A stretch of DNA of 53,818 nucleotides from Chrysochromulina tobinii (lineage: Eukaryota), in assembly GCA_001275005.1 (NCBI GenBank), contig JWZX01003404.1, positions 1 through 53,818 of the forward strand, given 5' to 3'. Shown here in pieces: positions 1 to 52,732 of this stretch (within the stretch, counting starts at the first letter, position 1; every line of letters starts with the position of its first letter). A program made the position numbers and the translations under genes. Under the pieces are notes generated by a model that had not been told where the DNA came from, made no database searches, and saw only the letters and a list, made by a program, of their open reading frames with translations.

Positions 1-3000
1 GGACCAGCGCCTTCATGAACAGCATTTCACAGGCGCCGCCGCGGGCGTGGCCGCCGCCGCGGCCGCCGCCGCTGCGGCTGCCCGTTACGGCGCGCCAGTC
101 GCTCCGTACTATGCGACTCCGGGCACCCGCCCGCTCGACGTCCCCGTCTCCGTCCCCGACTTCCCCACAGCCGGCGGCGGTGCGTACAACGGCAACGGCT
201 ATGGCAACGGCTATGGCAACGCCAACGGCTATGGCAACGGCAACGGCTATGGCAACGGCAACGGCTATGGCAACGGCAACGGCTATGGCAACGGCTATGG
301 CAACGGCTATGGCAACGGCTATGGCAACGCCAACGGCTATGGCGCTGGCCCGCCGGGCTATGGCGCCGCTGACAGCGGCGCGGCTGGCGGCGCCGCCGTT
401 GGCGGCGGCTCGCCGCCCCTCCCGGGCGGTCGCGTCGTCCCGGGCGGTCGCGTCGAGCGAAGCCTGTCGCAGGCGTTGCAGGCGTCGTATCAGGCGCGTT
501 GATTGCCTCTGATTGCCTCTGATCGCCTCTGATTGCCTCTGATCGCCTCTGATCGCCTCTGATGGCCTCTGATCGCCTCTGATTGCCTCTGATCGCCTCT
601 GATCGCCTCTGATCGCCTCTGATGGCCTCTGATCGCCTCTGATGGCCTCTGATCGCCTCTGATGGCCTCTGATCGCCTCTGATTGCCTCTGATCGCCTCT
701 GATCGCCTCTGATTGCCTCTGATCGCCTCTGATCGCCTCTGATCGCCTCTGATTGCCTCGACCACACCCTCCTCAGGTACGTGCCCAGCTGGCGCATCAT
801 GCTACCGCTCCTCGTTGGCTACGCGGCCGGGCTCGTGTTGTACGTCGGGTTCGTCATTCAGCTCGCGTGCTGCTCGTCGCTGCTCCACGAGCTCACGTGC
901 CTCGCGCGCTCGGATCCCTTTGGAAGTGACGAGATGCGCCGAGCCGCGTACGGCGCTCCTACCGAAGGCGTGGACGACGAGAGCTGGCCTCTGCCCGACT
1001 TCGATGGCTCCGAGGCCATGCAGGTTCGAAACCACTCTCTCCTCTGATTGCCTCTGATTGCCTCTGATTGCCTCTGATTGCCTCTGCCCGACTTCGATGG
1101 CTCCGAGGCCATGCAGGTGCGAAACCACTCTCTCCTCTGATTGCCTCTGATTGCCTCTGATTGCCTCTGATTGCCTCTCCCCGACTTTGATGGCTCCGAG
1201 GCCATGCAGGTGCGCCCACCACGGCGCTCAGAGGGCCACTCCACGAGAGCCCCTGAAAGGACACTCCTTCCCTCGCCTGCATGCGCCCACCACGGCGCTC
1301 CCCCCTGAAAGGACACTCCTTCCCTCGCCTGCACGCGCCCACCACGGCGCTCGCCCCCCCCCCCGCGCGCAGATGTCGGGGCGTTCTCTGGTGCCTCCCG
1401 AGGAGAAGCTGCTCAGTCAGATGCTCGAGGCGGTCACACAACGGCTCGTCCCTCCGGTGCTCGTGCAGCAGTCGTCGACCCTCTACTCGCGCATGGGGCC
1501 GCTCGCGATGTTTGAGCGCTGGGGCCAGTGGGCATTGCAGAGCGCCCAGGACGGCGCCACGCCAACGCTCAGCGGCTCGGCGACGCCGTCGGACGCGCCC
1601 AGGACGACGGCGACAGCGTTGACGTCGCGCGCCGAGGGCGCCGCGTCGGGCGCCGTCGCCGCCGTCGCGGGCGCCTTGGCCGCCGCTTCGGGCGCCATCG
1701 CTGCCGCGGCCGCGCGCGTGGTCGAGAAGACAAGCTTCGATCTGCACGACGAGACGGAGCGCTCAGCGCAGCGCTCGACGCCCAGCTCGGCGCGGTCGCC
1801 CGCCGCCCTGGGCGCGAGTGCTCACCACGGCACCTTGGGCACGAGTGCGCGCTCCACCTCGCGGCGCCGTGGTGAGCACTCCGCCTCGCGGCGCCGTGGT
1901 GAGCACTCTGCCTCGAGGCTCGCGGCCTCAGCCAGCAAGGCTCCCTTCGATGGCGTCACGTCGGCCCTCTCCTCGTGTTTTCTCAACGGCCCGTGGGCGT
2001 ACTCGCCCGAGGCAGACAATCTGCGCTGGGCGCTCCGGTATGCCGATCGAGATGCCGATTGGATTGCATGCTGATTGCATCCTGATTGCATCCTGATTGC
2101 ATCCTGATTGCATGGGAGGACCTCTCGCTGGGCGCGAGAGCTCACGCCGATCTCGAGCCGATCTCGAGCCGATCTCGAGCCGATCTCGAGCACGAGGGCC
2201 TCGGCAAGTGCTCACCACAGCATGCAAGTGCTCACCACGGCGCGACCGCGTCGCTCTGCCCAGGTACGCCGATCTCGAGCACGAGATCGAGAGCTGGGTG
2301 CGCGAGCAGCGCATGCGCCAGTGGGTTCGGCAGCACCAGCGGCTCGAGCGCCAGTACTGGGAGCGGCAGCAGCAGCGCCACCTCTCCTTCGAGCGGCTCG
2401 TGGCCTCGGCTGCACCGCCACGCCGGCGATCGCACGCCAGCGTCACTGAGTCGGCTGACCACGTGGACGTGGATGCCGCGATCAGGCAGGCGGGCGCGGA
2501 GGCGGTGGCGGCACGTGACGCGACGGCCGCGGCGGCGGACCGTTCCGAAGCGGCGCTCCAGCGAGCGGCCCTGGCCGCCACTTCGGGCGACACGGCAGGT
2601 GCGCGCCTGGCGGCCTTGGAGGCGGACGCAGCCGCTGACGAGGCCACGCAGGCTGTGGCGAGAGCGCAGTCGGAAGCTGCGTTGGTGGCTGCGATGGGGA
2701 ACGCGGCGCGCGCCCAAGCCAACGCCTCTCGAGCGCAGTCGATTGCAGCGTCGGCCGAGACCGGCTTCTTGATTGGAGAGCCCAGTGCTGCCTCCAATCT
2801 CGGCTCTAATCTCGGCTCTAATCTCGGCTCTAATCTCGGCTCTAATCTCGCCTCCAATCGGGTCTCGGCACTCCCACCGTGGCCGGCCTTGCCGCCCATG
2901 CCGGAGGTGGACCGTTGCGTACCGGTACTTCCCGACGACATCCGGCGCAAGTTGCAGCTGCTGCTCGCCCTCAAGTTTCGTCTGAGCCTCGCCGCAGCGG

Positions 3001-3491
3001 CTGACGTGGAAGCGTTCCCCGCGCGCCACGCCACAAGCGCCACGCACCCCCCAGCAGCGAGTGCCGGTCACGGGACAGGTCCCGCCGCCGGCGCCAGCGC
3101 ACCGACTCCTCTGGGATCCGATCGATCGGCTGGGTCGCAAGACGGGGACCTGTGCTTCATCTGCTACTCGGGGCCACGCGATGCGGTGCTGCTCGAGTGC
3201 GGGCACGGCGGCTTGTGCTTTGGCTGCGCCACACGGTGCATGCAGATGCGCTTCCAGGAATGCCCCATCTGCCGGCAGCCCATCAGCCAGATCGTGCAGC
3301 TCGAGCTCACGGAGCGCCGTGGCGAGCGCGCCAAGCGAGGCACGGACGGCGTCGTGCTCACAATTGCGCAGGCCGGTCAGCTCACGCAGCTCGACAGTGT
3401 GAGCGAGGAGGATGAGGAGGCGTCGGACGTTGACGCGCTGCAGTCCACGCGCGCCAATGCCAACGAGCCAGTGCGCTTGTTGGACGCATGA
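1..3491 (+). CDS. Multi-exon membrane-anchored RING-finger (C3HC4, zf-C3HC4_3-like) E3 ubiquitin ligase; 5' end probably outside the window
   Basis: Proposed exons <1..493, 777..1023, 1373..2037, 2264..3491. The last three join in frame via GT-AG introns 1024..1372 and 2038..2263. Exon 2 encodes a hydrophobic segment (IMLPLLVGYAAGLVLYVGFVIQLACC). The last exon encodes CFICYSGPRDAVLLECGHGGLCFGCATRC..CPICRQPI. The exon1-exon2 phase does not reconcile with the best donor (494), so that join is uncertain. Confidence 0.75.
187..342 (+). repeat. Coding low-complexity repeat (GGCAACGGCTAT-type units; GNGY/GNGNGY)
   Basis: Tandem 12/18-bp units seen directly; they translate to a Gly/Asn/Tyr-rich tract in the 47..502 frame. 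Confidence 0.9.
494..776 (+). other. Putative GC-AG intron filled with a 10-bp tandem repeat (GAT[T/C/G]GCCTCT)
   Basis: CAG|GCGCGT donor-like site at 494. About 26 decamers span 501..760. Acceptor CCCTCCTCAG ends at 776. There is no internal AG on the sense strand. Confidence 0.7.
1024..1372 (+). other. GT-AG intron containing two extra copies of the upstream exon end plus donor (93-bp period) and decamer repeats
   Basis: GCCTCTGCCCGACTTCGATGGCTCCGAGGCCATGCAGGT occurs at 987, 1080 and 1173 (third copy with 2 changes). Acceptor CGCGCGCAG|ATG at 1372/1373 keeps the frame (phase 0). Confidence 0.8.
2038..2263 (+). other. GT-AG intron with TGATTGCATCC repeats and CCGATCTCGAG x4 copied from the next exon
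   Basis: Donor CG|GTATGC, acceptor CTGCCCAG|G. The phase-2 join gives ...WALR-YADLEHEIESW. Confidence 0.8.
2796..2850 (+). repeat. Coding 12-bp tandem repeat (AATCTCGGCTCT; SNLG x4)
   Basis: Seen directly. Confidence 0.9.
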
Positions 3492-3511
3492 GCGCGACCA
3501 CGTGACCACCA

Positions 3512-3643
3512 CCGACGAAACTGAGGCACTGCAGCCGACGAAACTGAGGCACTGCAGCCGACGAAACTGAGGCACTGCAGCCGACGAAACTGAGGCACTG
3601 CAGCCGACGAAACTGAGGCACTGCAGCCGACGAAACTGAGGCA
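3512..3643. repeat. 23-bp minisatellite CCGACGAAACTGAGGCACTGCAG, 5 full copies plus a partial
   Basis: Perfect tandem copies at 3512, 3535, 3558, 3581 and 3604, partial at 3627; no spacers. Confidence 0.95.
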
Positions 3644-4029
3644 AACGTATACGATAAGGCGATCCTCCGTCTCCGATACACCGTGTCGGGTATTTCTCTT
3701 TTCGCTGATCCCTGATCGGCTGATGTAGCGAACCGCACCGCACACGAGCCACGCTTGAGCGTTCGTGCGTTGAGGCTTGTAGTTGTACGGTGTAAATGTT
3801 GTGAAAAAATCAAAATGCAACTTCCGCCACGCGGCACGCGCACACGTTCACAACACGTACCTATGGCACCTACGTGTCGTGTGTCCACCATCCCTTGCCT
3901 CAACATACGATCCCTGCGATATCCATAAGGATCTTAAATGAGTCTTGCACGTCGACGTCCTCGTTCGTCAGTTCTCAGACTCTCTCACGGGCACACGCAC
4001 GTTAGTCGCACTCTAGGCCGCCCTCTCAC

Positions 4030-5979
4030 TCACCGCCGGCTCGAGGGCGGTATGAGCGCCTCAGGGATGGTTGTCGGGAGCGGCTCGCCGCGCTTCGTCT
4101 TCATGGTGAGGTGCATGGCGACTGCGAACCAGTCGGCGTCGAGCAGCCCATCCTCGTTCACGTCCACCAGGTTCCAGATGTCGCGCAGCACAGCCTGGTC
4201 GAGCCCCGAACGCTTGAGCACGGGCGCCACCTTGCTGCCGCCCACCTTGCCGTCCTCGGGCAGCATCTGCTCGAAGATCGAGTCGTACTTGGTCTTCTCC
4301 GCGCTCGTGACCGCCCAAGGGGTGGACACCGCCATCCGGGATAACGCCACCGTGGGCGGCGGCGGCACGGGCGCCGGCGGAGCGGCGGCAGTGGTCGGTC
4401 GGCCAAAGAGACCGTCGACCATGCCCGCCGTGTCGGCGGGGCGCGCGGGGGGTGCAGCGGGCGCCGTCGCCCACGGATCCCTCGGCGCCATCGTGGGCGC
4501 GGACGGCACAGCGACGGGGGACGAGCTCCAAGGGTCACTCGGCGGCGCCGAGGGTGGAGGCATCACCGAGTGCTCCGGCGCCGCGTGCTCCTGTGGCTTG
4601 GGCTGCCACGTGGACTGTGCGGGCTGCCCTTTGGGCTCCGGCTGTCGCATACCCCCGCTCGGGACCGCGGGGGTGGCGGCTGGGACGGCCTCAAAGGCGG
4701 ACATGAGGTTGCCGATGTGATCGCGGATGATCGTGTCGAGCTGCCCCAAGAGCTTGTCATCCAGCTTCTTGAACTTGGTGAAGTCGCGGCAATACTCGTT
4801 CGTGGCGAGGATGTGCCGAAACTTGGCCACGTCGGGGAAGTCGCCGGGTGGGATTGCGTGTGCCCGTGACACTTTGAAGAAGATATCCTCGAGCCCGGCG
4901 ATGAGCTCCTTCTGCTTTTTGTCCTTGCCCATCATCACCTGACATGAGGAAGGCAATCAGAGGCAATCAGAAACCGTCAGAGGCCATCAGAGGCCATCAG
5001 AGGCCAACATAGACCGCTTGCCCATCCTCACCTTCCTCGTCTCGGAGCGCAACTCGTCCAACACGAGCGCCTGGCAGCGCACCATGCGTGTGCGGTACAC
5101 GAGGTCGTTGAGCTTGTTCGTCGTGTTGTTGCGCGGCAGCGAGGCGAGGTCGTTCAGCAGCGCCGTCGTCTCGGTCTCGAACAGCTCCATCATGTAGCTC
5201 GGCCGCAGCGGCTGGTCCCAAAACGAGCCCACGTAGATGCGCCGCGTCTCTGCACCCTTGAGGATGCGCGCGAGGTTCCACGTGAGCGCCGAATTGATCT
5301 TGAGCAGCTCGTGCGGCTCGAGCGAGTCGGCCTTGTTGAGGATGACGCGGATCTTGTCATCGTAGCCCTCGAGGTGCCGGATCACGTCGGCGAGCTCGTC
5401 GGGAATGTCGACCTTGTTCGCGTCGAACATGAGCAGGATCATGTCGCAGCGAGGCGCGAACCACTTGATCACGTCGTAGTACGAGTACTGCCGGTCCTCG
5501 GTCTGCTTCCTCCCGGCGAGCACGCCCGGCGTGTCGACCAGAGTGCACCCCATGGCAAAGTCCGAGGGCACCTCGCAGCCGTACAGGCGCGAGAGGAACG
5601 TGTTGCCAAACTTGGTCAGCTCCGCAAACGGCGACAATGGGTTTGAGATGAGCGCGTGGCCCGGGATCTCGCGCTCGCTGTGGCCAAACATGATCGCCTG
5701 AAAACGGTCGGTCGTCGGCTCCGGGCCGATGTGGGCGCCTGGGTAATCCCGGTCTAGCAGGTACTTGATGAAGGTGGTTTTTCCGACCGAGTAGGATCCG
5801 ATGAGCAGCACCATCGGCTTCGCATCAAAGTCCTGGTCGGTGAGCATCGGGTAGTGGAACTGGTTCACAAGGTACTGCTCCTCGAGCGGGCGTACCATGT
5901 CGCGGTAGATGGCCTTGACGCCCGAGACGATGTCATCGTATCCGGAGGCATCAAACTTAGGCCGACGGCGACGCCCCAT
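4030..5979 (-). CDS. EHD: EH-domain-containing dynamin-like ATPase (EHD/RME-1 family)
   Basis: Exons 5979..5032 and 4938..4030 (phase-0 GT-AG intron 5031..4939). Motifs: KPMVLLIGSYSVGKTT P-loop, IGPEPTTDRF, DTPG, LNKAD, YVGSFW, IPPGDFP. C-terminal EH domain WAVT..KYDSIF..SGL..LRDIWNLVD..FAVAMHL. Confidence 0.95.
4939..5031 (-). other. 93-bp GT-AG intron with CTGAT(G/T)GCCT repeats and a duplicated exon start
   Basis: The intron begins GTGAGGATGGGCAAG and the next exon begins GTGATGATGGGCAAG. It ends GATTGCCTTCCTCATGTCAG. Confidence 0.85.
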
Positions 5980-6179: not shown

Positions 6180-7171
6180 ATGGCGCCGCTCACGTATTCC
6201 TTGATCGCGACGGGCCTTGCGGCGTGCTCTGCGCTGCGCCTCGGCCCAGGCATCACGCGCACCCCGGGTGTCGTGCGCCCTGTCGTTGATGTACGCATGC
6301 AGGCGCCGAAAGTGTTCAACCTTGCGCCTGATGCGGCGTCCACCATGCCCACCGTTGCATCAATGGAAGCTTTCACTGTTGCGCCTCCACCGTGGGAGAA
6401 CTCTGACAGGCAGCTCTTGCAGCTCAAGAGGGAGGATCCGTACCTGCAGCAGCTCATCAAAAAATGCCCGCAGCTCAGCCCCGTGTGGCGGCGTGCCGAT
6501 TTCTGGGTCAATGAGACTGCAACCTTTCTTGAGATCGTCAACGTGCTGGGCCGGTTTAACACGTGCGATCAGTGGGCCATGCGCACGAAATTCGTGAGTT
6601 GCCATTAGCATCGAACCCACGCAGGAGACGCGCCCGGGGTGGCACTCACGCCGCCTCCGTCCGAGCGCACGCGCAGTTGGAGGTCGAGAACACGCGCAAG
6701 GAGGACAGGAGCAATAGCTTGACGCTCAAGCGGCACGAGATGGCCAAGCGCCTTGGGTGCGCGGAGCGCGTCGCGCTGTTCCAGAAGGTGCCTGAACTGC
6801 CTTTCACCAACGAGCTGCTCGCAAAATCGGTAGGCCTGACCGTAGAGGACTTCCAGAAGCTTCCGGTGTCTATTGCGGCCTGCAACATAGTGTTCGACGC
6901 GCTGGCCGAGAGCCGGTCGGGGCTTATCCCCTATGCTACGGTCGACGACCGGTACAAACAGATCGTCAATGCTGATGGTAGCTTCAATGAGCTCGCTTTC
7001 CGCGTCGGCCACACGAAGTCGACTGTCCTCATCATCGTTGGGTGGTTCATCTTCGGAAAGGCCAACTTTATTTGGGTCCTCGTCGGCGTCAAGTGGATGC
7101 ATGACCTCCGGCCCGACTTAGTCCCCTCGCCAGTCGACCTGGGACTCTTCAAGATTTGGGGCATCATCTAA
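6180..7171 (+). CDS. Hypothetical protein with bipartite signal/transit-like N-terminus (probably plastid-targeted) and C-terminal hydrophobic segment
   Basis: Exons 6180..6593 and 6677..7171 (TTC|GTGAGT...GCGCAG|TTG, phase 0). N-terminus MAPLTYSLIATGLAACSALRLGPGITRTPGVVRPVVDVRM. C-terminal LIIVGWFIFGKANFIWVLVGV. Confidence 0.8.
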
Positions 7172-7810
7172 AGGCGCTGCTGCTCCGGGCGGCTTGAAGG
7201 GAGCGCTCACGAGTGTGCTCACAGCAGGCGCCGAAGACGGCGTGGACATGAAGTGCGAACGACGACGGAATCGGAAAAGGCGAGGACGAGAATCGAATCT
7301 TGTGCCGCGCGAAGCTGGACGATTTCGACCCCACGTTGAGTTTTGGGCTCACTCACACAGCACTTTGGTCGAGTAGAGACTGAATTTTAGGCGAATGGGC
7401 CCGTGTTCGTGTGTGCGAATGGCGCCCGTGTTCGGGGACCGGACGGGGTGCCGGCTCTGATGATGAGATTTAATGATGAAGAGTCCTTTGAGACGGTGGT
7501 GTAGTGAGCGCGGCGGGGGACCGCGACGAAAGGTCGAAACTGACTGACTGACTGAATATGAACGACTCTCGGCAGGAGTCGGAACAAGAGTCGAAAATTC
7601 AAAAAAACTTCCGGAGGTCAGAGGCAGCACAAGGCTGAGGGCTCGGCTCAAGGGTAGCAGCGGTGCACTTCCTGGTCGGTTGCGGGCGCGGCGCGGCGGG
7701 GCGGACGAGCGAGTCCCGTGACTGAATGCGTGAGTGCGGGGGGACCGCGACGAAACTGACTGACCGTCTGACGTTATACGTTTACCGGTACAGTACAACC
7801 GTCGCCGTGA

Positions 7811-13372: not shown

Positions 13373-13779
13373 GGCAATTCAAGGTGATGCTCCACGGTGC
13401 GCATGGACTCGATCCAAGGACAGGTTTGTGGGGCGCGATCTTCACCTTGCATCACATCGGCGGTTGAAATACTGTGAACGTTAACACGACAGACGCGACA
13501 ACCGGTGCTACGGCACTGTTACTGCCCGCTCAGAATACACACACCTTACACGACCCCATATGAGACACGGAGCATGCGCGCGCGCTAGCGGCGTTGAGGT
13601 TTGGGCGTACGGTGTGGAAATCCGATAGCGGTACCGGTACCATGTGCCGCCTGGATGTCTGGTCATCGTCGACCCCCCCAACGAGTGCCCTCTTCGAGTC
13701 CGTGGTGTGAAGACAAGTTGCGAAGTGGAAGAACGTGAACGCTTCTGCGAATTGTCTCCCCAGCGCGTGCTCGCTCGGA

Positions 13780-40170: not shown

Positions 40171-41740
40171 ATGAGTAACAACGGCGGCATGCGCGCTGCG
40201 CCGCGCGCTTCCGGCATCGCCGCGGGGGCCTATGTGTACAAGGCGTCAGCAGTTCCGAAGCCACATCGGCAGCCCGTGCAGCAGCCACAGCCCCAGGCGA
40301 CGGCGGACACAGCCACCTTCCTCTCGTTCGTTCGCATGCTCGCGTCCAAGCCCGAGGAAGAGCAGCGCATGCTCATGCAGGTGGCGATGCAGGAGGCCGC
40401 CGCTGGGCCCCCGCCGCCGCCCGGGCACAGCCCCTCGGTAGCGCCGGGCGGAATCCGCCGATCGTCGTCAGCGGCCGAGCTGCGGCGGAGCCCGCTGCGG
40501 CGCTCCGTATCCATGGACGGCTCCGACTTTGGCAGCCGTGGTGCGAGCAGCGGCAACGGCCTCATCATGGGCGGCCAATCGGCGGGCGGCGCGGGCAGCA
40601 TGGCCGGCAACATCATGATCGGCGGGCCGGGCGCCGACAACCGTCCGCGCTCGGCGGACGCGGCGACGTGCGGCGGCAGCGGCGGCAGCAGCATGCAGGG
40701 GCAGGCCCTTGCGGCCGCGTGGGGCGCCTCGGCGCTCAGCGTCGCGGGCGCCGTCGCGGGCGCACAACGCGCCAACCCCTTGCGCCAGCGGCAGCAGCAA
40801 GTGCTGCAGCAGCGCGCGGCCGCACAGCTTCAGCAGCAGTTCGCGCGGCGCGCAGCAGCGGCGACGCTGCAGGCGCACTGGCGCGGCTGGCAGCATCGGC
40901 GACTCGCGCGCTACCTGCGTGCCCGTCGCAAGCGTGCAATGCGTCTCGACTGGCTGTGGCACCTCGAGTATGTCACCAACCTGCTGCAGTGGCACGAAGC
41001 GGCTCACACAGTACAGGCCGCCTTTCGCGCGAAGCGCGACATCGCACGCCAGCGCGCGGTGTCTCCGCCGTCGCTCGCGCAGCATGCGGCGCGCGGGCAG
41101 GCCGTCGCACCGCTCGCTGCCGCCGCCGCGTCGGGGCCGCGCGGCAAAGCCATGGCAGGGGCGGCCAAGGCGGGGGCGGCCAAGGCGGGGGCGGCCACAA
41201 GCGCTGCGACGAGCGCGGCTGAGGCCGGCCCGGCCGGTGATAATTCGACAAGCTCACAGCCCGCCACGTCGACGATCACCGCGCCCCCGGCGACGGCGGA
41301 GACGGCGACAGGCTCCGGCGCCGAGTCGAGCGCGGACTCGGTGGGGAAGGGTACGGGGGGCAGCGGCAAGGGCCTGGGTGTGAATGCGAATGGAGCGCGG
41401 CTCACGGTGCGTCCCGCTCGCCCTGACCTGCCCATCCCCCTGCCCATCCCCCTCCCAATGCACATCCCAACCTGCATCCTCTCCGGTCCCCATGTGCTCA
41501 CGATGGCACGACCGCGTCGCCCGTCATTGGTCCCCCGCACGCAACACGAGCCAGCGCTTCCCCTGTACTCCCCCCCCCTTCCCCCTCCCCCGACTCGCAT
41601 GCCCTAATTTGGCCCTTGGCCCCTCGCCTGCCCTAATTTGGCAGGTGCATTGGAGAGGAGAGCTGTCCGAAGTGCGCACGTACTCGGTGCCCGCCCTGAT
41701 GGGAGGCGGGCCGGGCGCGCCTTGGGGCGCAGCGAGGTAA
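40171..41740 (+). CDS. IQ-motif (calmodulin-binding) protein with C-terminal RVxF-like motif
   Basis: CCACCATG start. AAATLQAHWRGWQHRR and AAHTVQAAFRAKR. Phase-0 GT-AG intron 41407..41644 gives RLTVHWRGELSEVRTY. Confidence 0.7.
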
Positions 41741-45080: not shown

Positions 45081-48000
45081 ATGCTTTTTTGGTTCGCCTG
45101 TACCATCCTGCCTTCACTGGCCACTACCACGGCGTGCACGCGGACGGAACGCGCATGGCTGCAGCACTGCGCGGTGGCCGACGACTGCACCTCCGAGGCT
45201 TCCTTCTGTAGCTGCTGCGGTGCGTACCCAAATACCGAGTACGCAGATGCTTGCGAGGTGATCTGCGGCATGAGAGTGGTGCACGCTCGCAGCAGGTCCG
45301 CCGCAGCGGCACACAGCTCGTGGGACTTTGAAGATTTTGGTGACAGATCGTCGACCTCCGTTCGCGAGCGAGGGCCCACGTTCGAGCAACCAGCGCTGTC
45401 GCTCATCGGCGATGCGGCCGTCGTTCTTGGCGACTGCTACAACTTGGACGTGCGCGCCCGTGCGACTGCTGACACGCACGCCGAAATTGTCGCGGGCGAA
45501 GACGGTCAGGAGGCATGCCTCATACCGCCCGTGACGCCACGCCTCTTCTCGACGGACGCGCACCTCGCCCTCAACCTGAGCGTCTGCCCGTCGCGGGTGG
45601 CACCATTCCACGTGCACGACCCGCAGCCTGCCGCGCTCGCCGCCATGCTATGCTTCGACGAGTGCCGTGTGCGCAACACGACGCAGCGAACCGCCCCACC
45701 ACCCGTGGTGGACTACGACGCGTTGCGCATCGCCAACTGCGCGCGGCAGTGCTTTGTTTCGTGCGTAGTACCAGCTGCCGCCCAGTGCGCCGCCGACTGC
45801 GGTGCGGCTAACTACACCTGCTTCGCCACGTGCCATCGCGAGGCGACCACGTGCTCGGTGCCGATGGGCCAGCGTGATGTGCGCTACTTTCGCGCCGACC
45901 CTAACGCGCCGGTGTGCACGGACGAGCATGACCGGTATCGGCAGTGCGTCATTGAGTGCAATGGGCAGTGCCACGAGGAGCTCGCAAGGAGTCAGCGGAC
46001 GGTTCACGATGACGTCAGAGACTGGTACCACCAGACATGCTCGGCGCCACTCGGTCGGAGTGCCGTGCTCGCGCCGAGCTGCGTGCTCGACTGCGAGACC
46101 CGCTGCCAGAGCTTCTGTAACCAGACCGTGACCGCTATCCTCGGGCCTGAGCTCGGCCTCGGCCTTCACCTGCGCAACTGCACGCGCAACTGCAGCGCGA
46201 ACTGCGACGGGGAGTGCTTTGTCGAGGACGCGTATGACGGATACGAGGTGGGCTGCCGGCCGTCGCCAGTGTTCAACTGCACTGAGGGGTGCTACACCAC
46301 CCAATGCCCAGCGCAGCCCACCTTTTGCTCTGTGTACGATACGCTCGGGGCCCTGAGGGCGGTGGACCTGAACTGCACCTTCCTCACGACGAAGAACGTC
46401 ACCTTCGAAGATACTTGGTCGAACATGTCCGTGTCGATTGGCGCTCAGCTGGCTGACCCGTCCTCGGCGTTGTCCCAGTACATCGGGCTGGACGGCAATA
46501 CGCACATCTGTTACAACGAGTGCACCGACACCACGACGGGCACCGAGCTCTTCTTTCACGCCGCCCGTGCAAGCCTGACCGCCGCCGCTGCCTCCATCGA
46601 GATCGGCCGAAACTGCACGACGCGCTGCTACGAGCGCACGTGCCTCGACAGCTGTACATTCGAATGCACTCTCGAGGCGGCGCGTCGACTGCTGCCGCCG
46701 TGTGTGCGTGGACCCAATTGCATCTCGCCCACGAACTGCTCTCTCGCCGAGTCGAGCAACTGCTCGGCTTTTAGGGCATTCGAACCGGTACTGATCAACA
46801 TCACGGCGGTCACTATGAATGTGACGGTCTGGGTGCCGCCGTGGACGCAGGACGTGTGTGAGGATCGAGTGGGCCAGAGCGTCGATAGCTTCCGCGCGTG
46901 CTACCAGCGCTGCCCCATTCACTGCGCGAGCGCTTGCCCGTTGCCTGTGAACCACACGACGCGGCTGCGGAACGGGTCGCTGTACAACGACACCTCGGGC
47001 GCATGCCTTGCCCAGTGCCACTACGAGTGCGCGCATAACTGCTCGCTCAGCATGATCGACGACGTGACGAGCACGTGGTGTGTGCCTCCGCTCGAGCCGA
47101 TCACACGGTGCGTGCCTCCGGTCAATTGCACCGACGATTGCTACGACGAGTGCCTCGACCCCACGCTCCTGCTTGCAACGGATCCCCAGTGCGAGGAGTT
47201 CCGGTACGGCTTCCGGCCGGACGGCTCGAATCACACGGTCATCTCGATCCCATATGCATACAATGTCTCCTCGCCGGCCGCGTGCGCGCGTAACGAGACG
47301 CCTTGCTCGGACGCGAACATCTTCTACAACATGACGACGTTCGCGCGTGACGTGCTCGTGTCCAAGGGGTGTGTGCAACGGTGCGCCGCTCGCTGCGTGG
47401 CGCGATGCTTCGACCGTTACTGCGTCACGCGCCTCGAGGAACCTGTGAATGAGACGGCCATCTGTTTGCCGCGTTGCCTGGATCGCTTCTTCGAGGCATC
47501 GGAGGACGACGACGCGTCAGTCGACGGGGGCGCGGCCAACGCCACCACGCCCAACGTGACCGCCTGTCAGTTGAGCTGTCACGCGGAATGCATCGTCGGC
47601 CGTTCGTCCAATTGCTCGGCGCTGTGCGAGTCGTACTTTGACCCGACGCTCTGGGGCTTGTGTCTCGGTAACTGCTACGCTAACGCGAGCGTCAGTTGCC
47701 ACCGCGACTGCGTGTACGGGTGCACCTCCAATCACACGCTCGCCTATGGCTTCGCAGCGCCCTACAATGCCTCGGGCGACTACTTCACTGCGGCGGCGTT
47801 GGTGCAGATTGCGCATGAAGATGCGCTCGTGCACGCGGCAAGCTGGAGCAATGCCGCCGCGAGTTGCTACAACAACTGCACGAGCCTTTGTGCGATTCGT
47901 TGTTTCGAGGAAGTCGTGTCCTCAGGGTTGTGTGCCCAGGAGGTGACGAATCTGACCAGCGCTCGTGCGGCCCGGGGCATGGCGCCGCTGCACCCTCAGG

Positions 48001-51000
48001 TGGTCGCCGAGGCGTCGAACAACTGCACGCTGCGCCGCTCGGCGACGTGCCTCGACGGCTGTCAGCACGAGTGCCACCAACGCTGCACCAACCTGACCGA
48101 TCCGATCCGTTACGACCTGATTCAAGCTGCTGAGTACGCCGAGCTTTACGCGACGTACGTGGAGCACTGCGAGAGCCGCTGCCGCATCCAGATCTACGGG
48201 CCCAACACGACCGATGACTCCTGCCTCGCGTTCACCAACGTGACGACCTATCGGCAGGAATGCCTCTTCAACTGCACAGACAGGGTGCGCCGAGGTATCT
48301 GCGCCAACCCGAACATCACTGTGGACGTGGGCATCCACTGCAACGCCACCGAACGATGCGGTGACCTCCACGTGCTGGTACAGCAGGCAGCGGCGACACC
48401 GAATGCCTCCGCCAGCATTGCCGCTCCTTATCATCAATGCATGCAGAGCTGCTCGGGCAATTTCACGCTTGATCCGCAGTACGTTTGCGACGGCGGCGTG
48501 TCACGTTTGATGGCGATCGACGCTGCGAGTGCGTACCAATTGCAGGCCGTCGGCGGGCTTGGCCAGCAGGGCACTACACCTGCCGAGCAGCTCGAGATGG
48601 ATCGACTGTGGGCGGCGGTCCCCATGGGCGAGATGTGCACCTTCGTCGACCTCGAATGCGTGGTCAACCACACGCTCCACTGCGCCTCGGAGTGCGCCAA
48701 CCAGGTCGCATTCTACTATGAGCTGTGTGTGGCGCGCTTCTTGCGCCGCAACGCCACGTTCGATTACAACATCTCGTCATGCTACCACCCCGACGGCTGG
48801 CGTGTGGGGACAGAGAGGTGGCGCTACTACGCGGCGCTCAATGCAAGCCGGCCCGAGGCGCAGCCGAGCTACTGGTTGGCACCCAATATGGGTCCGCCTG
48901 TGTGGACGTACAACGACGTGCCCAACGCGACGGTGCTCAACTGCTCGTGTCACTTTCTCAATGAGACGTTTGATCCGAACTTTGTGGCCGCGCTCCTCGA
49001 GTGGCGCATGCGTCCGTATCAAAACCACTACATCTCCACGTGCCTCTGCCTCTTCAACACAAGCGCTGGCGAGCCGCAGCACTGCATCCATGATCCCTCA
49101 GAGTTCGTCAACGTGCCGAGCATCTTTGACTGGGTCTTTGGCAAGGGGAGCGGCGGCTACGATGAGGACGTTGACCACGTGGCCACGCAGGCAGATGAGC
49201 TCGTGACCTGTGGCTCGCCGTGTGTGTCGCATTGCTCCGCGCACTGCGGCGTCTACTTTGTTGAGCATGTGACGCCGTCGACCAACGGCGGCTCGGCGTT
49301 CTTGCCGCGATTCAATGAGACATTTCGCTTCTCGGACTATCCCGCCTCGCTCACGAACTGGGTGGTGAGCAACGGCCAGGGCGGCAGCATGGTCACCCCG
49401 GGCCATTGGCGATCACCGCCTGGGTGCTTCCAGCCGTGCATGGCCACTTGTGCCGTGGCCAACTGCACCGATGGCTGCGGTGCCGGGTGCGCGCCGGGGC
49501 CCGAACCGGAGTACGATAACTCGACTGCGCTCGACTTTGGGTGTGAATGGAACTCGACAGTGGACGAAGGCCGGCCCCTTTGCTACCAGTTCTGCGGCTG
49601 CTACGAGCAGTGTGCCTCGCGATGCGTCGCCGAGCTGCCCAGAATGAACACGAGCACCCTGATGCTCGAGCGCTTCCCAGTTTGCATCGACAACTGCTCG
49701 AGCACGTGCGAGGATGAGCATCACGCACGGTGCGTCAACATCTCCGCCATGCTTGCCGCCTCGCGCATCCCGCCGTACGTCAACCAGACGCAGGTGTGCC
49801 TCAACAGCATCTTCCCCACATGCTCGTTGCACTGCCTCGGGATCTCGATACGCAACGTGACGAATACCAGCGGCGCGCTCTTCGTGCCGTCGAAGCTCCC
49901 CCGTGAGCTCCTCTCGCTCAACCTCAGTGCGGGCTTGGGCCATCTCCGAGGAGTGCGTGGGCCTCCAGAGGGGTACACGTTTGGCGAGGAGGCGTACGAA
50001 GGGTACACCTGCCGGATCGACCCGTGCGATGACCTCTGATCACACCTCCTCTGATCCTCTGATGATGCCTAATTGCCTTCTTCATTAGGTACGCCTGTCG
50101 GATCGAGCCGTGCGATGAGGTGCTAGTCACAACGTCCTTCACGCTCCTCGGCGTGACGACGACGACCTCCACAGCCGTCCTCAGGACTCCTAGTGGATTG
50201 CCATGTAATCAGACGTCGCTTCAGCTTGGCGAACGAGTCCTGACCGACCCATCCTCGGGCAACACGTCGATCGTGCCAATCCTGATCAACGTCTCGACCG
50301 CTACGCTCGAGGGCTGCCACGAGAACCGTTCGTCGGCTTGCCTCTCCACGTGCAACGACTTCGGCTACAAGGTCTGCTTCCCCGACGTCGACCCGTTTGA
50401 CCTGTGCGTGCAGAGCTGCATCGCCAACCTCACGTACTTCGAGACGTACGAGTTCGACCACACGCTCTCTGTGTGTAAGAAGAAGCTGCGGCTCACGCCC
50501 TCGCAGCCGAGCCGACGCGGCGCCGCGTGGTATCGACGCAAGCAGCATGTGCGAGAGGGCTTCCGCACGAGCTTCGCATTCCGACTTGAACACCCGAGCC
50601 GCCGCTGCCCCGACGTGGCGCATCCTTCTTTCGAAGAGCAGCCCGAGGGCCTCCGCAATCTCCTCTGTTCGGGGCGCGGGGGCGACGGCTTCGCGTTTGT
50701 GATCCAAGACGCGGGCGCCACGTCCTTTGATCCGCATTGCGCGTACGCGGCCGTAGACCAGTGCAACGGATTGGCGGCGGCGCAGTGCACGGAGCAGTGC
50801 CGTAGCCAATGTCCAAATCGGGTCGCAGCGGAGCACACCAGTTGTGCAGCAGCGTGCCTCAAAGGGGACTCGTACACCATGCCACCGGTCGCTGCCCTCG
50901 GCTCGGCCGTCGAGCGCGCGGCGTACGCGGCGGCCGCCGCCGCGGCGGCTGGCGCGTGTAGCGCATCTGTCGTGCAGTGCGTCGCCAGCGCATGCGGCGG

Positions 51001-52732
51001 GCGCGAGGTCGAATTCTTCTCGGGTGCTGCCATGCAGCCCGGTGGTTGCTTGCGCGACTGCCTGGACGCGGGATCACGCACGTTCTGTGAGGCTCGCTGC
51101 CCTCTGGTGGATGAGGACGTGGACGACGATTGCGTGAGCGCTTGTGCCAACGAGCGTCTCGCCGACTCCACTGAGTGCTTCCGAGGATGCAATTCGAGCT
51201 GTGCAAGCCAGGGGTTACTCGAGCAAGCAATGTGCGCGGAGGACTGCTTGGGTGGCGCCGCGCTGCTGGCGAGCGGCGAACCAGTCGGCCGCTGCCGTGC
51301 CAAGGTTCAAGCCTTCCCGACCCACGAAACCGCAACCTGCCTCACCTCTTGCTCTCACACGGACCACGAATGCCTGCGTGCATGCCTCGAAACGCCCGAG
51401 GGGCTACTTCCCAACTGCGTGGGCGCATGCCCGCAGAACAATACGCGCTGCGTCCTCGAGTGCATGCGTGGGTTCGGGCAGCGTGGTAGTGAGTGCGTCA
51501 GCCCGCGAGTGCTCGAGTGCAACTACACGAGCTCGGCACTTGGCGACGGCGCTGCAGGCATCGGCTACGCCAACCTGCGTAACACGCTCGCGATCAAGTT
51601 TGACACGTGGTACAATGCAGAGCGCTCGGACCCGTGGGTAAGCCACGTGGCCGTACACTCTGGGGGAGAAGACTATGGTGCGCCGTCGGACACGAGCGCC
51701 GCACTCGCGATCACCTCTGACTTCCCCGACATTGCGGACCAGAAGTACCACGAGGTGATCATCGAGTACGTACCGCGCTTTGAGACGGACGGGAATCTCG
51801 CAGGGATGAGCATCACGCCGGGCATCGCTGCGCGCCTGACGACGGCTCAGCGCGGCAATATGCTCTACGTCGACACCCTGAAGGTGACCCTCGATGACGC
51901 CGTCATCCTTCGCGTGCCGCTCAACCTCGAGACTCTTCTACGTCTGGACCAAGGGCGCGCGTACGTTGGTTTCACGGGCGCCACAGGCTCCGCGTACCAG
52001 GAGCATTCGATCCATGCGTGGCGATTCCAAGAGAGCGTTTCTGGCACCCTCGCCCACCCGGCCAACGAGCACTGCCGCCATCGTGTACCCTCGCTATGGC
52101 ACGGGAACGCCTACGATGGCGCGCCCGTGCTGCCCGCGAACGCGGCGCTCGCGTGCACGCCGGACGTAATGGATGTGACAACCCCACTCGGAGCGATGCA
52201 CTCGCTCCGATGCACTGAGGACGCGAGTGGCCACGTGTATTGCCTCGACCCGAACACGCCCAACAGCGCACCCATCATCTACGAGCCCATGCCCGACATC
52301 TCGGTACTCGTGGGCGAGCCTGTGAACATCACGCTGCACGACGGCTTCCGCGACCGCCAGAGTGACGGGCGGTACACATCAAATCTGCTCCGTTACTCAC
52401 TTATCTTCACGCCACACAATGAGGAGCCCCAGGATGGCATCGCTTGGGTACACTTCAACTCGTCGACGCGCCAGCTGCGCGGCATCCCAACGCATCCGGG
52501 CACTTGGCGAGTCAACATGACCGCTATCGATCCAGGCTTCCCTGACGCAGGCAGACCCACGACGTGGACAGACCCGCGCATGGCACCGATGAATACAACA
52601 GACGAGTTCCTCTTGCAGGTGCGCGTGCGACCGATCGACCCACTGGCGGCGGACTTCTGGGCGCCGACAGTGGAGCAACCCACTCCCACAGAAGCGGTAC
52701 CGAGAGTGTCTGCGTCGATAGCGCCGTACTAG
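45081..52732 (+). CDS. Giant secreted Cys-rich glycoprotein (~2,520 aa) with split legume-type (L-type) lectin domain and C-terminal cadherin/He_PIG-like Ig domain
   Basis: Exons 45081..50002 and 50089..52732 (phase-2 GT-AG intron). Signal-like MLFWFACTILPSLATTTA, many CxxxC repeats and NxS/T sequons. Lectin motifs LRLTP..GAAWY, GGDGFAFVIQ, LAIKFDTWYN, AYVGFTGATG..HSIHAWRF. Ig motif WVHFNSSTRQLRGIP..VNMTAID. Confidence 0.85.
50003..50088 (+). other. 86-bp GT-AG intron whose first 30 nt duplicate the next exon start
   Basis: GTACACCTGCCGGATCGACCCGTGCGATGA versus GTACGCCTGTCGGATCGAGCCGTGCGATGA (27/30). CTCTGAT filler. Ends AATTGCCTTCTTCATTAG. Confidence 0.85.

What the first reader, a model, noticed from the sequence alone, without database searches (positions are those of the whole stretch)
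494..5031. Shared CTGATTGCCT-type intron filler and shared 3' end across unrelated genes (introner-like family)
Seen: variants of TGAT(T/C/G)GCCTC fill introns at 494..776, 1024..1372, 2038..2263 (11-mer TGATTGCATCC), 4939..5031 (minus) and 50003..50088. They are always on the sense strand of the host gene. Each unit contains CTGAT, fitting the YTRAY branch-point consensus, and has no AG. The 3' ends are alike: GATTGCCTTCCTCATGTCAG, AATTGCCTTCTTCATTAG, GATTGCCTCGACCACACCCTCCTCAG. The SEC13, IFI44-like and 6594 introns lack this repeat, so two intron classes coexist. Inference: either a mobile intron family or a repeat-adding (slippage or templated repair) mechanism that supplies branch points.
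Basis: partly seen in the sequence, partly recalled or inferred. Interest (0 to 1): 0.8.

Follow-up and report, generated by a model that had tools for sequence, protein, structure and literature searches.

The report
New introns from duplication plus filler
In this alga many genes carry short insertions made of a shared repeat flanked by a duplicate of the neighbouring coding sequence; they are likely DNA-repair scars, kept as new introns when they face forward and as in-frame peptide insertions when they face backward, so intron birth can probably be studied as it happens.

Summary
The repeat is real and genome-wide: 40 exact decamers in the window against 0.4 expected, and 271 arrays in 125 fetched loci. 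The EHD intron (4939-5031) is spliced in 3 of 3 RNA runs laid. The host is a Chrysochromulina (haptophyte). Repeat/duplicate junctions show microhomology. A second shared 3' end behaves alike (26 of 42). One such insert segregates (18 filled, 19 empty alleles; absent in 29 relatives). 'Always sense' is wrong in a useful way: 5 of 5 confident antisense inserts lack splice sites and keep the reading frame. Best reading (0.6): repair or template switching copies pieces of existing introns into genes with a target duplication, in either orientation, and selection sieves the products. It is not a classical introner (inserts only 45-79% alike). It resembles the Daphnia break-repair introns, with longer duplications and a shared source. 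The scan noted similar scars in two other protists. The donor at 494 is probably misplaced.

The parts
1..3491 (+). Host gene 1 (5' end off the contig), C-terminal RING finger; four exons
   Evidence: Open frame of about 875 codons after splicing; Pfam zf-C3HC4_3
484..776 (+). Intron 1; acceptor 776; donor uncertain (494 as given breaks the frame, 484/487 and six others keep it)
   Evidence: not seen in RNA
500..759 (+). Decamer filler array, 26 copies
987..1214 (+). 93-bp unit (end of upstream exon + donor + filler) in 2.5 copies; filler passes into the exon copy through a shared GCCTCTG
1024..1372 (+). Intron 2; filler arrays 1041-1086 and 1134-1178; second-family-like 3' part
   Evidence: only donor 1024 keeps the frame; not seen in RNA
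1801..1908 (.). Exonic, in-frame fragments of the second 3'-end family: one sense (about 1816-1833), two antisense (1863-1908), each with a short target duplicate at 27-nt spacing
2038..2263 (+). Intron 3; 11-mer array 2062-2113; 17-nt direct repeat 2032-2048/2258-2274 spaced by the intron length; internal copies of the next exon's start; second-family 3' end
   Evidence: not seen in RNA
4030..5979 (-). EHD (EH-domain ATPase) gene, host of intron 4
4939..5031 (-). Intron 4: 17-nt duplicate of the junction and next exon start (5017-5033 / 4924-4940, 94%) + filler 4951-5006 + shared 3' end
   Evidence: spliced in 3 RNA runs; repeat; Pfam DUF5600 positions 1-31 | 34-107; absent at this site in relatives
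6594..6676 (+). Ordinary intron without filler or duplication (control class)
   Evidence: spliced in 2 RNA runs; sequence
50003..50088 (+). Intron 5: 31-nt duplicate of the next exon start (50002-50032 / 50088-50118, 90%) + decayed filler + shared-type 3' end

Best explanation
These are short insertions built from a 10-60 nt duplicate of the host sequence plus a piece of a shared intron repeat, and they are likely made by microhomology-guided DNA repair or template switching that copies from existing introns, with selection then likely keeping only spliceable (sense) or frame-keeping (antisense) products. Shown: the duplication-plus-filler anatomy, microhomology at the junctions, three registers (insert brings the acceptor, the donor, or neither, the rest coming from the duplicate), splicing of one such intron, a segregating filled/empty site with an empty ancestral state, and antisense in-frame twins. 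Inferred: a broken or stalled 3' end in a gene anneals by 3-8 nt to the abundant filler or to a CAG|GT junction of another intron, copies 35-230 nt, and returns to the target upstream of where it left, duplicating the span between. Because the sense filler has stops in all three frames but offers a CTGAT/CTCAC branch point and little AG, a sense insert would survive only if it is spliced; the reverse strand has no stop in any frame, so an antisense insert would survive only as a multiple of three. Each new intron adds template, so the system would feed itself without any encoded enzyme of its own. Direct repeats also allow tandem stacking and precise loss. The enzyme (Pol theta-like end joining, or break-induced replication) is not identified.
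For: Downstream exon start duplicated upstream at 73 of 147 acceptors (cross-locus null 0.6; same-locus control 14 of 142); same rate away from the search seed (58 of 117) as near it (15 of 30). Upstream exon end duplicated at 21 of 62 donors (null 0.3). 59 of 118 isolated filler blocks flanked by a direct repeat (null 1.1; control 7 of 113), 35 of the 59 in an exact GT/GC..AG register: 16 left edge, 9 right edge, 10 inside. Second family 26 of 42 (null 0.2). Microhomology of 3 nt or more at 5 of 10 and 4 of 10 scorable junctions (null 1.5% and 3.1%). Of 22 of 59 blocks with a confident host strand, all 15 in splice register are sense; the 5 antisense ones have no register and all are multiples of three and stop-free; one sits between IQ and EF-hand domains of a 1,624-codon frame; relative P0279 has the exact empty site of another, and P0277 differs by three decamers. 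Segregating site L013/L014: 78 nt = 31-nt duplicate + second-family 3' end; 18 filled, 19 empty, 8 not covering, of 45 listed cluster members; none of 29 relatives covering the site has it (29 of 69 hits). Two different families stacked at one site, each opening with a copy of the same exon start, needs import of a foreign 3' end. Pfam profiles continue across predicted introns in L053, L069, L074 and the window EHD gene.
Against: Half of the introns show no duplication of score 10 or more (74 of 147; some have 5-9 nt matches). Only one duplication-bearing intron was seen spliced in RNA; the segregating insert was not, and most of its alleles stay in frame unspliced. No parent locus was traced for any insert, and neighbouring introns share filler variants no more than distant ones (p = 0.15). 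Microhomology counts rest on 10 junctions each; 9 of 20 have 0-1 nt. The antisense set is small (5, two in one gene). Loci were picked by a perfect decamer dimer and come from several assemblies; no whole genome was held, so repair genes and retroelements could not be searched. The strong G|GT(G/A)CG target consensus fits priming, an endonuclease preference or plain selection for donors equally.
Confidence: 0.6

Rival explanations
1. Target-primed reverse transcription: a non-LTR retrotransposon enzyme copies excised intron RNA (or a repeat-tailed SINE) from its 3' AG into a nicked site, giving a fixed 3' end, a truncated 5' end and a variable target duplication.
For: The commonest class has exactly this anatomy: conserved 3' end (GCCTCCCTCATCAG in 15 of 35), variable 5' end, duplications of 10-60 nt, microhomology at the truncated end; exon starts with GT after 104 of 162 acceptors against 4.6% background; arrays look almost wholly genic; both orientations are expected. 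Anatomy of TPRT products is from general knowledge.
Against: Inserts carrying only the 5' end or only the middle of an intron are common (19 of 35 registered blocks) and do not follow from priming at the RNA 3' end. No element found; none could be sought genome-wide.
Confidence: 0.17
2. The introns are old or arose otherwise; filler grew by slippage from the branch point, and the exon duplicates were patched in later by repair that used spliced mRNA or switched between the two AG|GT junctions.
For: Array length varies between alleles by whole units and exon-end+donor+filler units are tandemly repeated; precise junction edges follow naturally; 22 of 73 duplications extend into the intron and are tandem repeats of existing intron ends.
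Against: Does not explain antisense inserts without any intron, two families stacked at one site, or a segregating insert absent from all 29 relatives. It probably acts as a second layer.
Confidence: 0.1
3. A non-autonomous DNA transposon family (introner, possibly moved by a Replitron-type HUH transposase) whose copies decay fast.
For: Introners with 4-bp duplications are reported from a Chrysochromulina MAG (PMC9860276). Replitron-1 makes variable-length duplications at RG sites, and one Replitron locus is reported in C. tobinii (PMC10288648).
Against: No fixed pair of ends, no near-identical copies, RG before the donor in only 15 of 32, inverted pairs of the second motif only 2 among 57 motifs. 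C. tobinii is in that introner survey's genome list and appears nowhere else in the stored (cut) supplement.
Confidence: 0.07
4. A telomerase-like enzyme with its own RNA template adds the decamer de novo at breaks.
For: Pure, perfect arrays occur flanked by duplications (L106 vs L041). Read-throughs of relatives' EHD introns translate as NPNP runs, which a CCCTAA-type repeat would give (inference from protein only).
Against: Inserts carry many unit variants and non-repeat conserved ends of two families; no template RNA found (Rfam none in window; not sought genome-wide).
Confidence: 0.04
5. Assembly artefact or ordinary satellite.
For: Repeats and duplications are prone to mis-assembly.
Against: Independent DNA contigs match the EHD intron without differences and RNA skips it; 10 of 10 listed 330-aa read-through proteins carry it; duplicates differ at 28 of 868 bases; neighbouring arrays share strand 125 to 8.
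Confidence: 0.02

Closest known systems
Daphnia pulex new introns from double-strand-break repair (PMC4202315; passages read)
   Same: Insertion flanked by a direct repeat of the adjacent exon; internal repeats; presence/absence polymorphism; repair proposed as the cause.
   Different: There the exon-intron repeats are 4-12 bp (33 cases among 90 introns) and the source of most inserts is unknown; here 10-60 nt, about half of the class, and the insert comes from two shared intron-end families; antisense in-frame twins are seen.
Introners, including Chrysochromulina sp. MAG family 5 (PMC9860276; passages and supplement look-up)
   Same: Many related introns in unrelated genes; one splice site carried, the other co-opted from the duplication; genic bias.
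   Different: Introner duplications are 3-9 bp and copies are near-identical families; here duplications are long and variable, copies share only ends and filler, and either or both splice sites can come from the duplicate.
Intron gain by tandem genomic duplication of an AG|GT site (named as the one experimentally shown route in PMC8469720, passage; details recalled)
   Same: The 10 'inside' cases get both splice sites from a duplicated AG|GT.
   Different: Here a foreign branch-point-bearing filler lies between the copies.
10-11 bp strand-biased intronic tandem repeats of Emiliania huxleyi (2013 genome paper; recalled, not held)
   Same: Short tandem repeats concentrated in haptophyte introns with strand bias; a preprint lists E. 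huxleyi among repeat-rich introns (10.1101/283549, passage).
   Different: As recalled, reported as a pattern without flanking duplications or a mechanism; not checked here.
Templated insertions of alternative end joining (SD-MMEJ/TMEJ) and MMBIR (review PMC7407515; passages)
   Same: Microhomology at junctions, repeat motifs, insertions with tandem or near-tandem duplications.
   Different: Here the template is in trans and drawn from one abundant intronic class, and the product is a new intron.

Membership tests
U2 spliceosomal intron | Removed from RNA at GT/GC..AG | tested here: met
   EHD intron in 3 of 3 RNA runs; other window introns by frame only; four Pfam-contiguous cases
U2 spliceosomal intron | Branch-point motif near the acceptor | tested here: met
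   Last YTRAY A at -17 in 97 of 146; use of the branch point not shown
Introner | Near-identical full-length copies at unrelated sites | tested here: not met
   Best global identity between 33 inserts 0.45-0.79
Introner | Short (3-9 bp) fixed target duplication and/or terminal inverted repeats | tested here: not met
   Duplications 10-60 nt, variable; no fixed ends; 2 inverted pairs among 57 second-family motifs
Introner | Splice site co-opted from the duplication; presence/absence polymorphism | tested here: met
Break-repair new introns (Daphnia type) | Direct repeat of the adjacent exon at the far end of the intron | tested here: met
Break-repair new introns (Daphnia type) | Empty ancestral allele | tested here: met
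   One site; EHD site empty in relatives
Break-repair new introns (Daphnia type) | Dependence on an end-joining pathway | not testable with these tools
   No genome held; needs mutants or mutation accumulation
Non-LTR (TPRT) insertion | Fixed 3' end, truncated 5' end, variable duplication | tested here: inconclusive
   Met by 16 of 35 registered blocks, not by the 9 right-edge and 10 inside blocks
Non-LTR (TPRT) insertion | Autonomous reverse-transcriptase partner with the same 3' end | not testable with these tools
   No genome; three motifs absent from viral contigs
Replitron | Insertion after RG; short direct terminal repeats | tested here: not met
   RG before the donor in 15 of 32; no constant pair of termini
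Ordinary satellite | Both orientations and intergenic occurrence at equal rates | tested here: not met
   95 sense vs 9 antisense, neighbours 125 vs 8; 47% of arrays pass the coding test, as coding controls (42%) and unlike intergenic controls (0%)

The most novel reading that the evidence does not exclude
A self-feeding, enzyme-free intron factory: the genome's own intron ends serve as the standing template for repair synthesis, so one mutational process writes both new introns (sense) and in-frame peptide insertions (antisense), is active in present-day populations, and may account for the lineage-specific repeat-filled introns of haptophytes generally, each lineage with its own filler.
Probability: 0.45. 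Interest if true: 0.85.

Novelty: new variant of a known kind. Interest (0 to 1): 0.72.

Why it matters
The source of new intron sequence is an open question: in the Daphnia work most new introns had no identifiable source (PMC4202315). Here the source is visible (ends and filler of existing introns), the events are numerous and young (3% mismatch between duplicates), one segregates in nature, and the antisense in-frame inserts give a built-in control that separates mutation from selection. The alga is cultured and has RNA data, so the model is directly testable. It also shows why introner screens based on full-length identity can miss a whole mode of intron proliferation, and it flags filler-derived peptides as real insertions or mis-annotations in haptophyte proteins.

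Tried and rejected
No whole genome held and loci not searchable as handles, so no genome-wide count. Decamer dimer, second-family motif and 3'-end motif: 0 matches in viral contigs. No Rfam family in the window. No longer homolog for exon 3 of gene 1, so its introns rest on frame alone. RNA confirmation of introns in a second locus was not obtained, so splicing of the other registers stays open. A hairpin between filler and 3' end (7-nt inverted match) is no more stable than shuffles (z about 0): rejected as a functional structure. Local (cis) templating: not supported (p = 0.15). Foldback/MITE source: only 2 inverted pairs among 57 motifs; opposite-strand neighbours are separate duplication-flanked inserts. 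No solved-structure match for the L050 host. First codon model had one training gene out of frame and was redone. Depth piles over the arrays (about 10,900 vs 45) show many contigs share the repeat but are not a copy number. Four lake runs held next to none of the window's words: no evidence. Ten literature searches found no description of this intron class in Chrysochromulina; the library lacks most subscription papers, including the 2013 Emiliania genome paper, and the introner supplement is cut, so absence from print is not shown.
Full report
1. Observation. The decamer is real: 36 + 4 exact matches in the window against 0.4 expected, in arrays at 500-759, 1041-1086, 1134-1178 and 4951-5006, plus an 11-mer array at 2062-2113. 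RNA contigs from 3 of 3 RNA runs laid skip 93 nt at the EHD intron, while the DNA run's contigs match the unspliced sequence; the filler-free intron 6594-6676 is skipped in 2 of 3. Removing 1024-1372, 2038-2263 and 50003-50088 restores long frames; the donor given at 494 does not, while eight nearby GT/GC donors do. Introns 2 and 3 end in a second conserved 3' end, not the decamer type. The EHD protein lies in a 90% cluster with a protein named from Chrysochromulina tobinii (98% identical), so the host is this haptophyte or a close relative; GC donors are common in the haptophyte Emiliania (PMC4028052, passages).

2. Wider sample. No genome was held. A scan of metagenome contigs for a decamer dimer gave 125 loci (476 kb, 464 kb non-redundant with the window; about 1,100 stretches estimated from 7 of 64 parts). 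They hold 271 arrays of three or more units (median 5). A codon model trained on window genes (51 of 55 held-out windows right) called the flanks sense in 95, antisense in 9, weak in 119, no clean flank in 48; neighbouring arrays share a strand 125 to 8. Arrays pass the coding test as often as coding controls (47% vs 42%; intergenic controls 0%, from nine window intervals; random positions in the loci 49%), so they look almost wholly genic. The 3' end is a consensus CTGATTGCCTCCCTCATCAG with the branch A at -17 in 97 of 146.

3. In three window introns a direct repeat is spaced by exactly the intron length: 17 nt (EHD), 31 nt (50003) and 17 nt (2038): the intron opens with a copy of the next exon's start. 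Across loci, 73 of 147 acceptors show this (15 more with filler directly downstream were set aside; cross-locus null 0.6; same-locus control 14 of 142); 35 have the copy starting at a GT/GC with its edge at the junction, 16 start otherwise, 22 are longer tandem repeats of an intron end. The rate is the same away from the search seed (58 of 117). The mirror case, a copy of the upstream exon end supplying the acceptor, occurs at 21 of 62 donors (null 0.3). An unanchored search found 59 of 118 isolated filler blocks (of 376) flanked by a repeat (null 1.1; control 7 of 113), 35 in exact splice register: 16 left edge, 9 right edge, 10 inside. The second 3'-end family shows the same at 26 of 42 (null 0.2). 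Duplicates are 10-60 nt, 28 mismatches in 868 bases; inserts are only 0.45-0.79 identical to their best match. Where the filler is periodic up to the junction, 3 nt or more of microhomology occurs at 5 of 10 and 4 of 10 junctions (null 1.5%, 3.1%). Of 30 exon pairs scanned, Pfam profiles continue within 1-3 positions across the predicted intron in 4 (L053, L069, L074 kinase, window EHD), the same family hits both sides with a larger gap in 3 more, and the rest are uninformative.

4. These are gains. L013 carries a 78-nt block (31-nt duplicate plus second-family 3' end, GT..CAG) that the 98%-identical L014 lacks, inside a 669-codon frame. Among 45 listed members of the five nearest clusters (52 members in all), 19 are empty, 18 filled (14 in frame, 3 with the frame lost, 1 cut short; my script binned three in-frame ones as 'other', recounted by eye) and 8 do not cover the site; some empty ones lie on contigs of 18-44 kb. 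None of 29 more distant hits that cover the site (of 69) has the insert; some of these may be spliced products. Splicing of this insert was not seen. At the EHD site all 10 listed read-through proteins of the species cluster carry the intron, while relatives that reach the site read through it and break elsewhere. One locus has a decamer-type and a second-family intron stacked at one site, each opening with the same exon copy.

5. The strand rule is a selective sieve. Of the 59 duplication-flanked blocks, 22 had a confident host strand. All 15 in splice register are sense, 2 without register are sense, and 5 are antisense; these 5 have no splice register and all are multiples of three and stop-free in the host frame (48, 57, 69, 60, 93 nt; chance about 0.004; two lie in one gene). 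The sense filler has stops in all frames, the reverse none. One lies between IQ and EF-hand domains in a 1,624-codon frame. For another, relative P0279 shows the empty site with one copy of the duplicated peptide, and close variants differ only by 30 or 24 nt. A separate search found 4 such blocks among 415, one new. The window's own exon at 1801-1908 holds second-family fragments in both orientations at 27-nt spacing. So insertion with duplication does not need a splice site or the sense strand.

6. Mechanism. Shown: anatomy, microhomology, three registers, both orientations, polymorphism, splicing of one case. Inferred (0.6): a DNA end in a gene switches by microhomology onto an existing intron, copies filler and often one conserved end, and returns upstream of its exit, duplicating the target; selection keeps spliceable or in-frame products; direct repeats then allow stacking, slippage and precise loss. 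Rivals: target-primed reverse transcription of intron RNA (0.17; fits the commonest class, not 5'-end or middle-only inserts), later remodelling of older introns (0.10; a likely second layer), a DNA-transposon introner or Replitron (0.07), telomerase-like synthesis (0.04), artefact (0.02). No parent locus or enzyme was identified, and neighbours do not share filler variants.

7. Comparison. Works like the Daphnia break-repair introns (PMC4202315, passages: repeats 4-12 bp, sources mostly unknown) and, in splice-site co-option, like introners (PMC9860276, passages), but fails introner membership on copy identity and duplication length; C. tobinii is in that survey's genome list and not otherwise named in the stored, cut supplement, whereas Emiliania and several haptophyte MAGs have introner counts. 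Replitron-1 makes variable duplications at RG (PMC10288648, passages and part 1 of section 9); RG is met at 15 of 32 sites. The C. tobin genome paper mentions about one intron per gene and no intronic repeat in the passages found (PMC4580454); PMC12480563, PMC11347835, PMC8469720, PMC7407515 and 10.1101/283549 were seen as passages only. Strand-biased 10-11 bp intronic repeats in Emiliania are recalled from its 2013 genome paper, which was not held. Two earlier notes of this scan describe similar scars in other protists; I did not test them and they did not change my reading.

8. Verdict. Real; first reading partly supported. New variant of a known route to intron gain, notable for scale, a visible shared source, a segregating gain and an antisense control. 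Interest 0.72.

Noticed in passing
window 13473-13551: Intergenic stretch on which many unrelated DNA contigs pile (bin depth about 13,750 vs 45): another high-copy repeat; no Rfam hit; only its first nine bases were looked for in the loci.
   Followed up: partly
window 7730-7764 and 7514-7555: Short upstream motif repeated twice in an intergenic region and shared by other contigs (loose ends and raised depth); possible promoter or small element.
   Followed up: no
window 2792-2859 (+): 12-nt in-frame tandem in the last exon of gene 1 (S-N-L-G repeats) that resembles a filler variant; may be another exonised insert.
   Followed up: no
window 3512-3643 (+): Perfect 23-nt tandem, 5.7 copies, just after the stop codon of gene 1.
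   Followed up: no
proteins P0009/P0010/P0154, P0003/P0005, P0011/P0156: Read-throughs of relatives' EHD genes break at other positions and run into other repeats (NPNP runs, RNSAQFS, HT runs), suggesting lineage-specific intron positions and fillers, one possibly telomere-like (protein evidence only).
   Followed up: partly
L066 vs L038: Three introns of two kinds stacked at one site in one allele, one in the other; exon-end+intron units also differ in copy number.
   Followed up: partly
L106 vs L041: 99-nt presence/absence block: pure decamer array plus 26-nt duplicate with what looks like a two-step template switch.
   Followed up: partly
L001, L003, L025, L027, L048, L071, L088: A shared intron 5' end (GTGAGTCTCGTCAATTGCC type), 9 copies, mostly followed by a copy of the upstream exon end.
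   Followed up: partly
window 45300-52732 (+): Gene of about 2,450 or more codons, cysteine-rich, with a legume-lectin-like domain in exon 2 and a single intron.
   Followed up: no
window 41392-41644 (+), approximate: Probable further intron without decamer, with two CCCTAATTTGGC copies near its 3' end.
   Followed up: no
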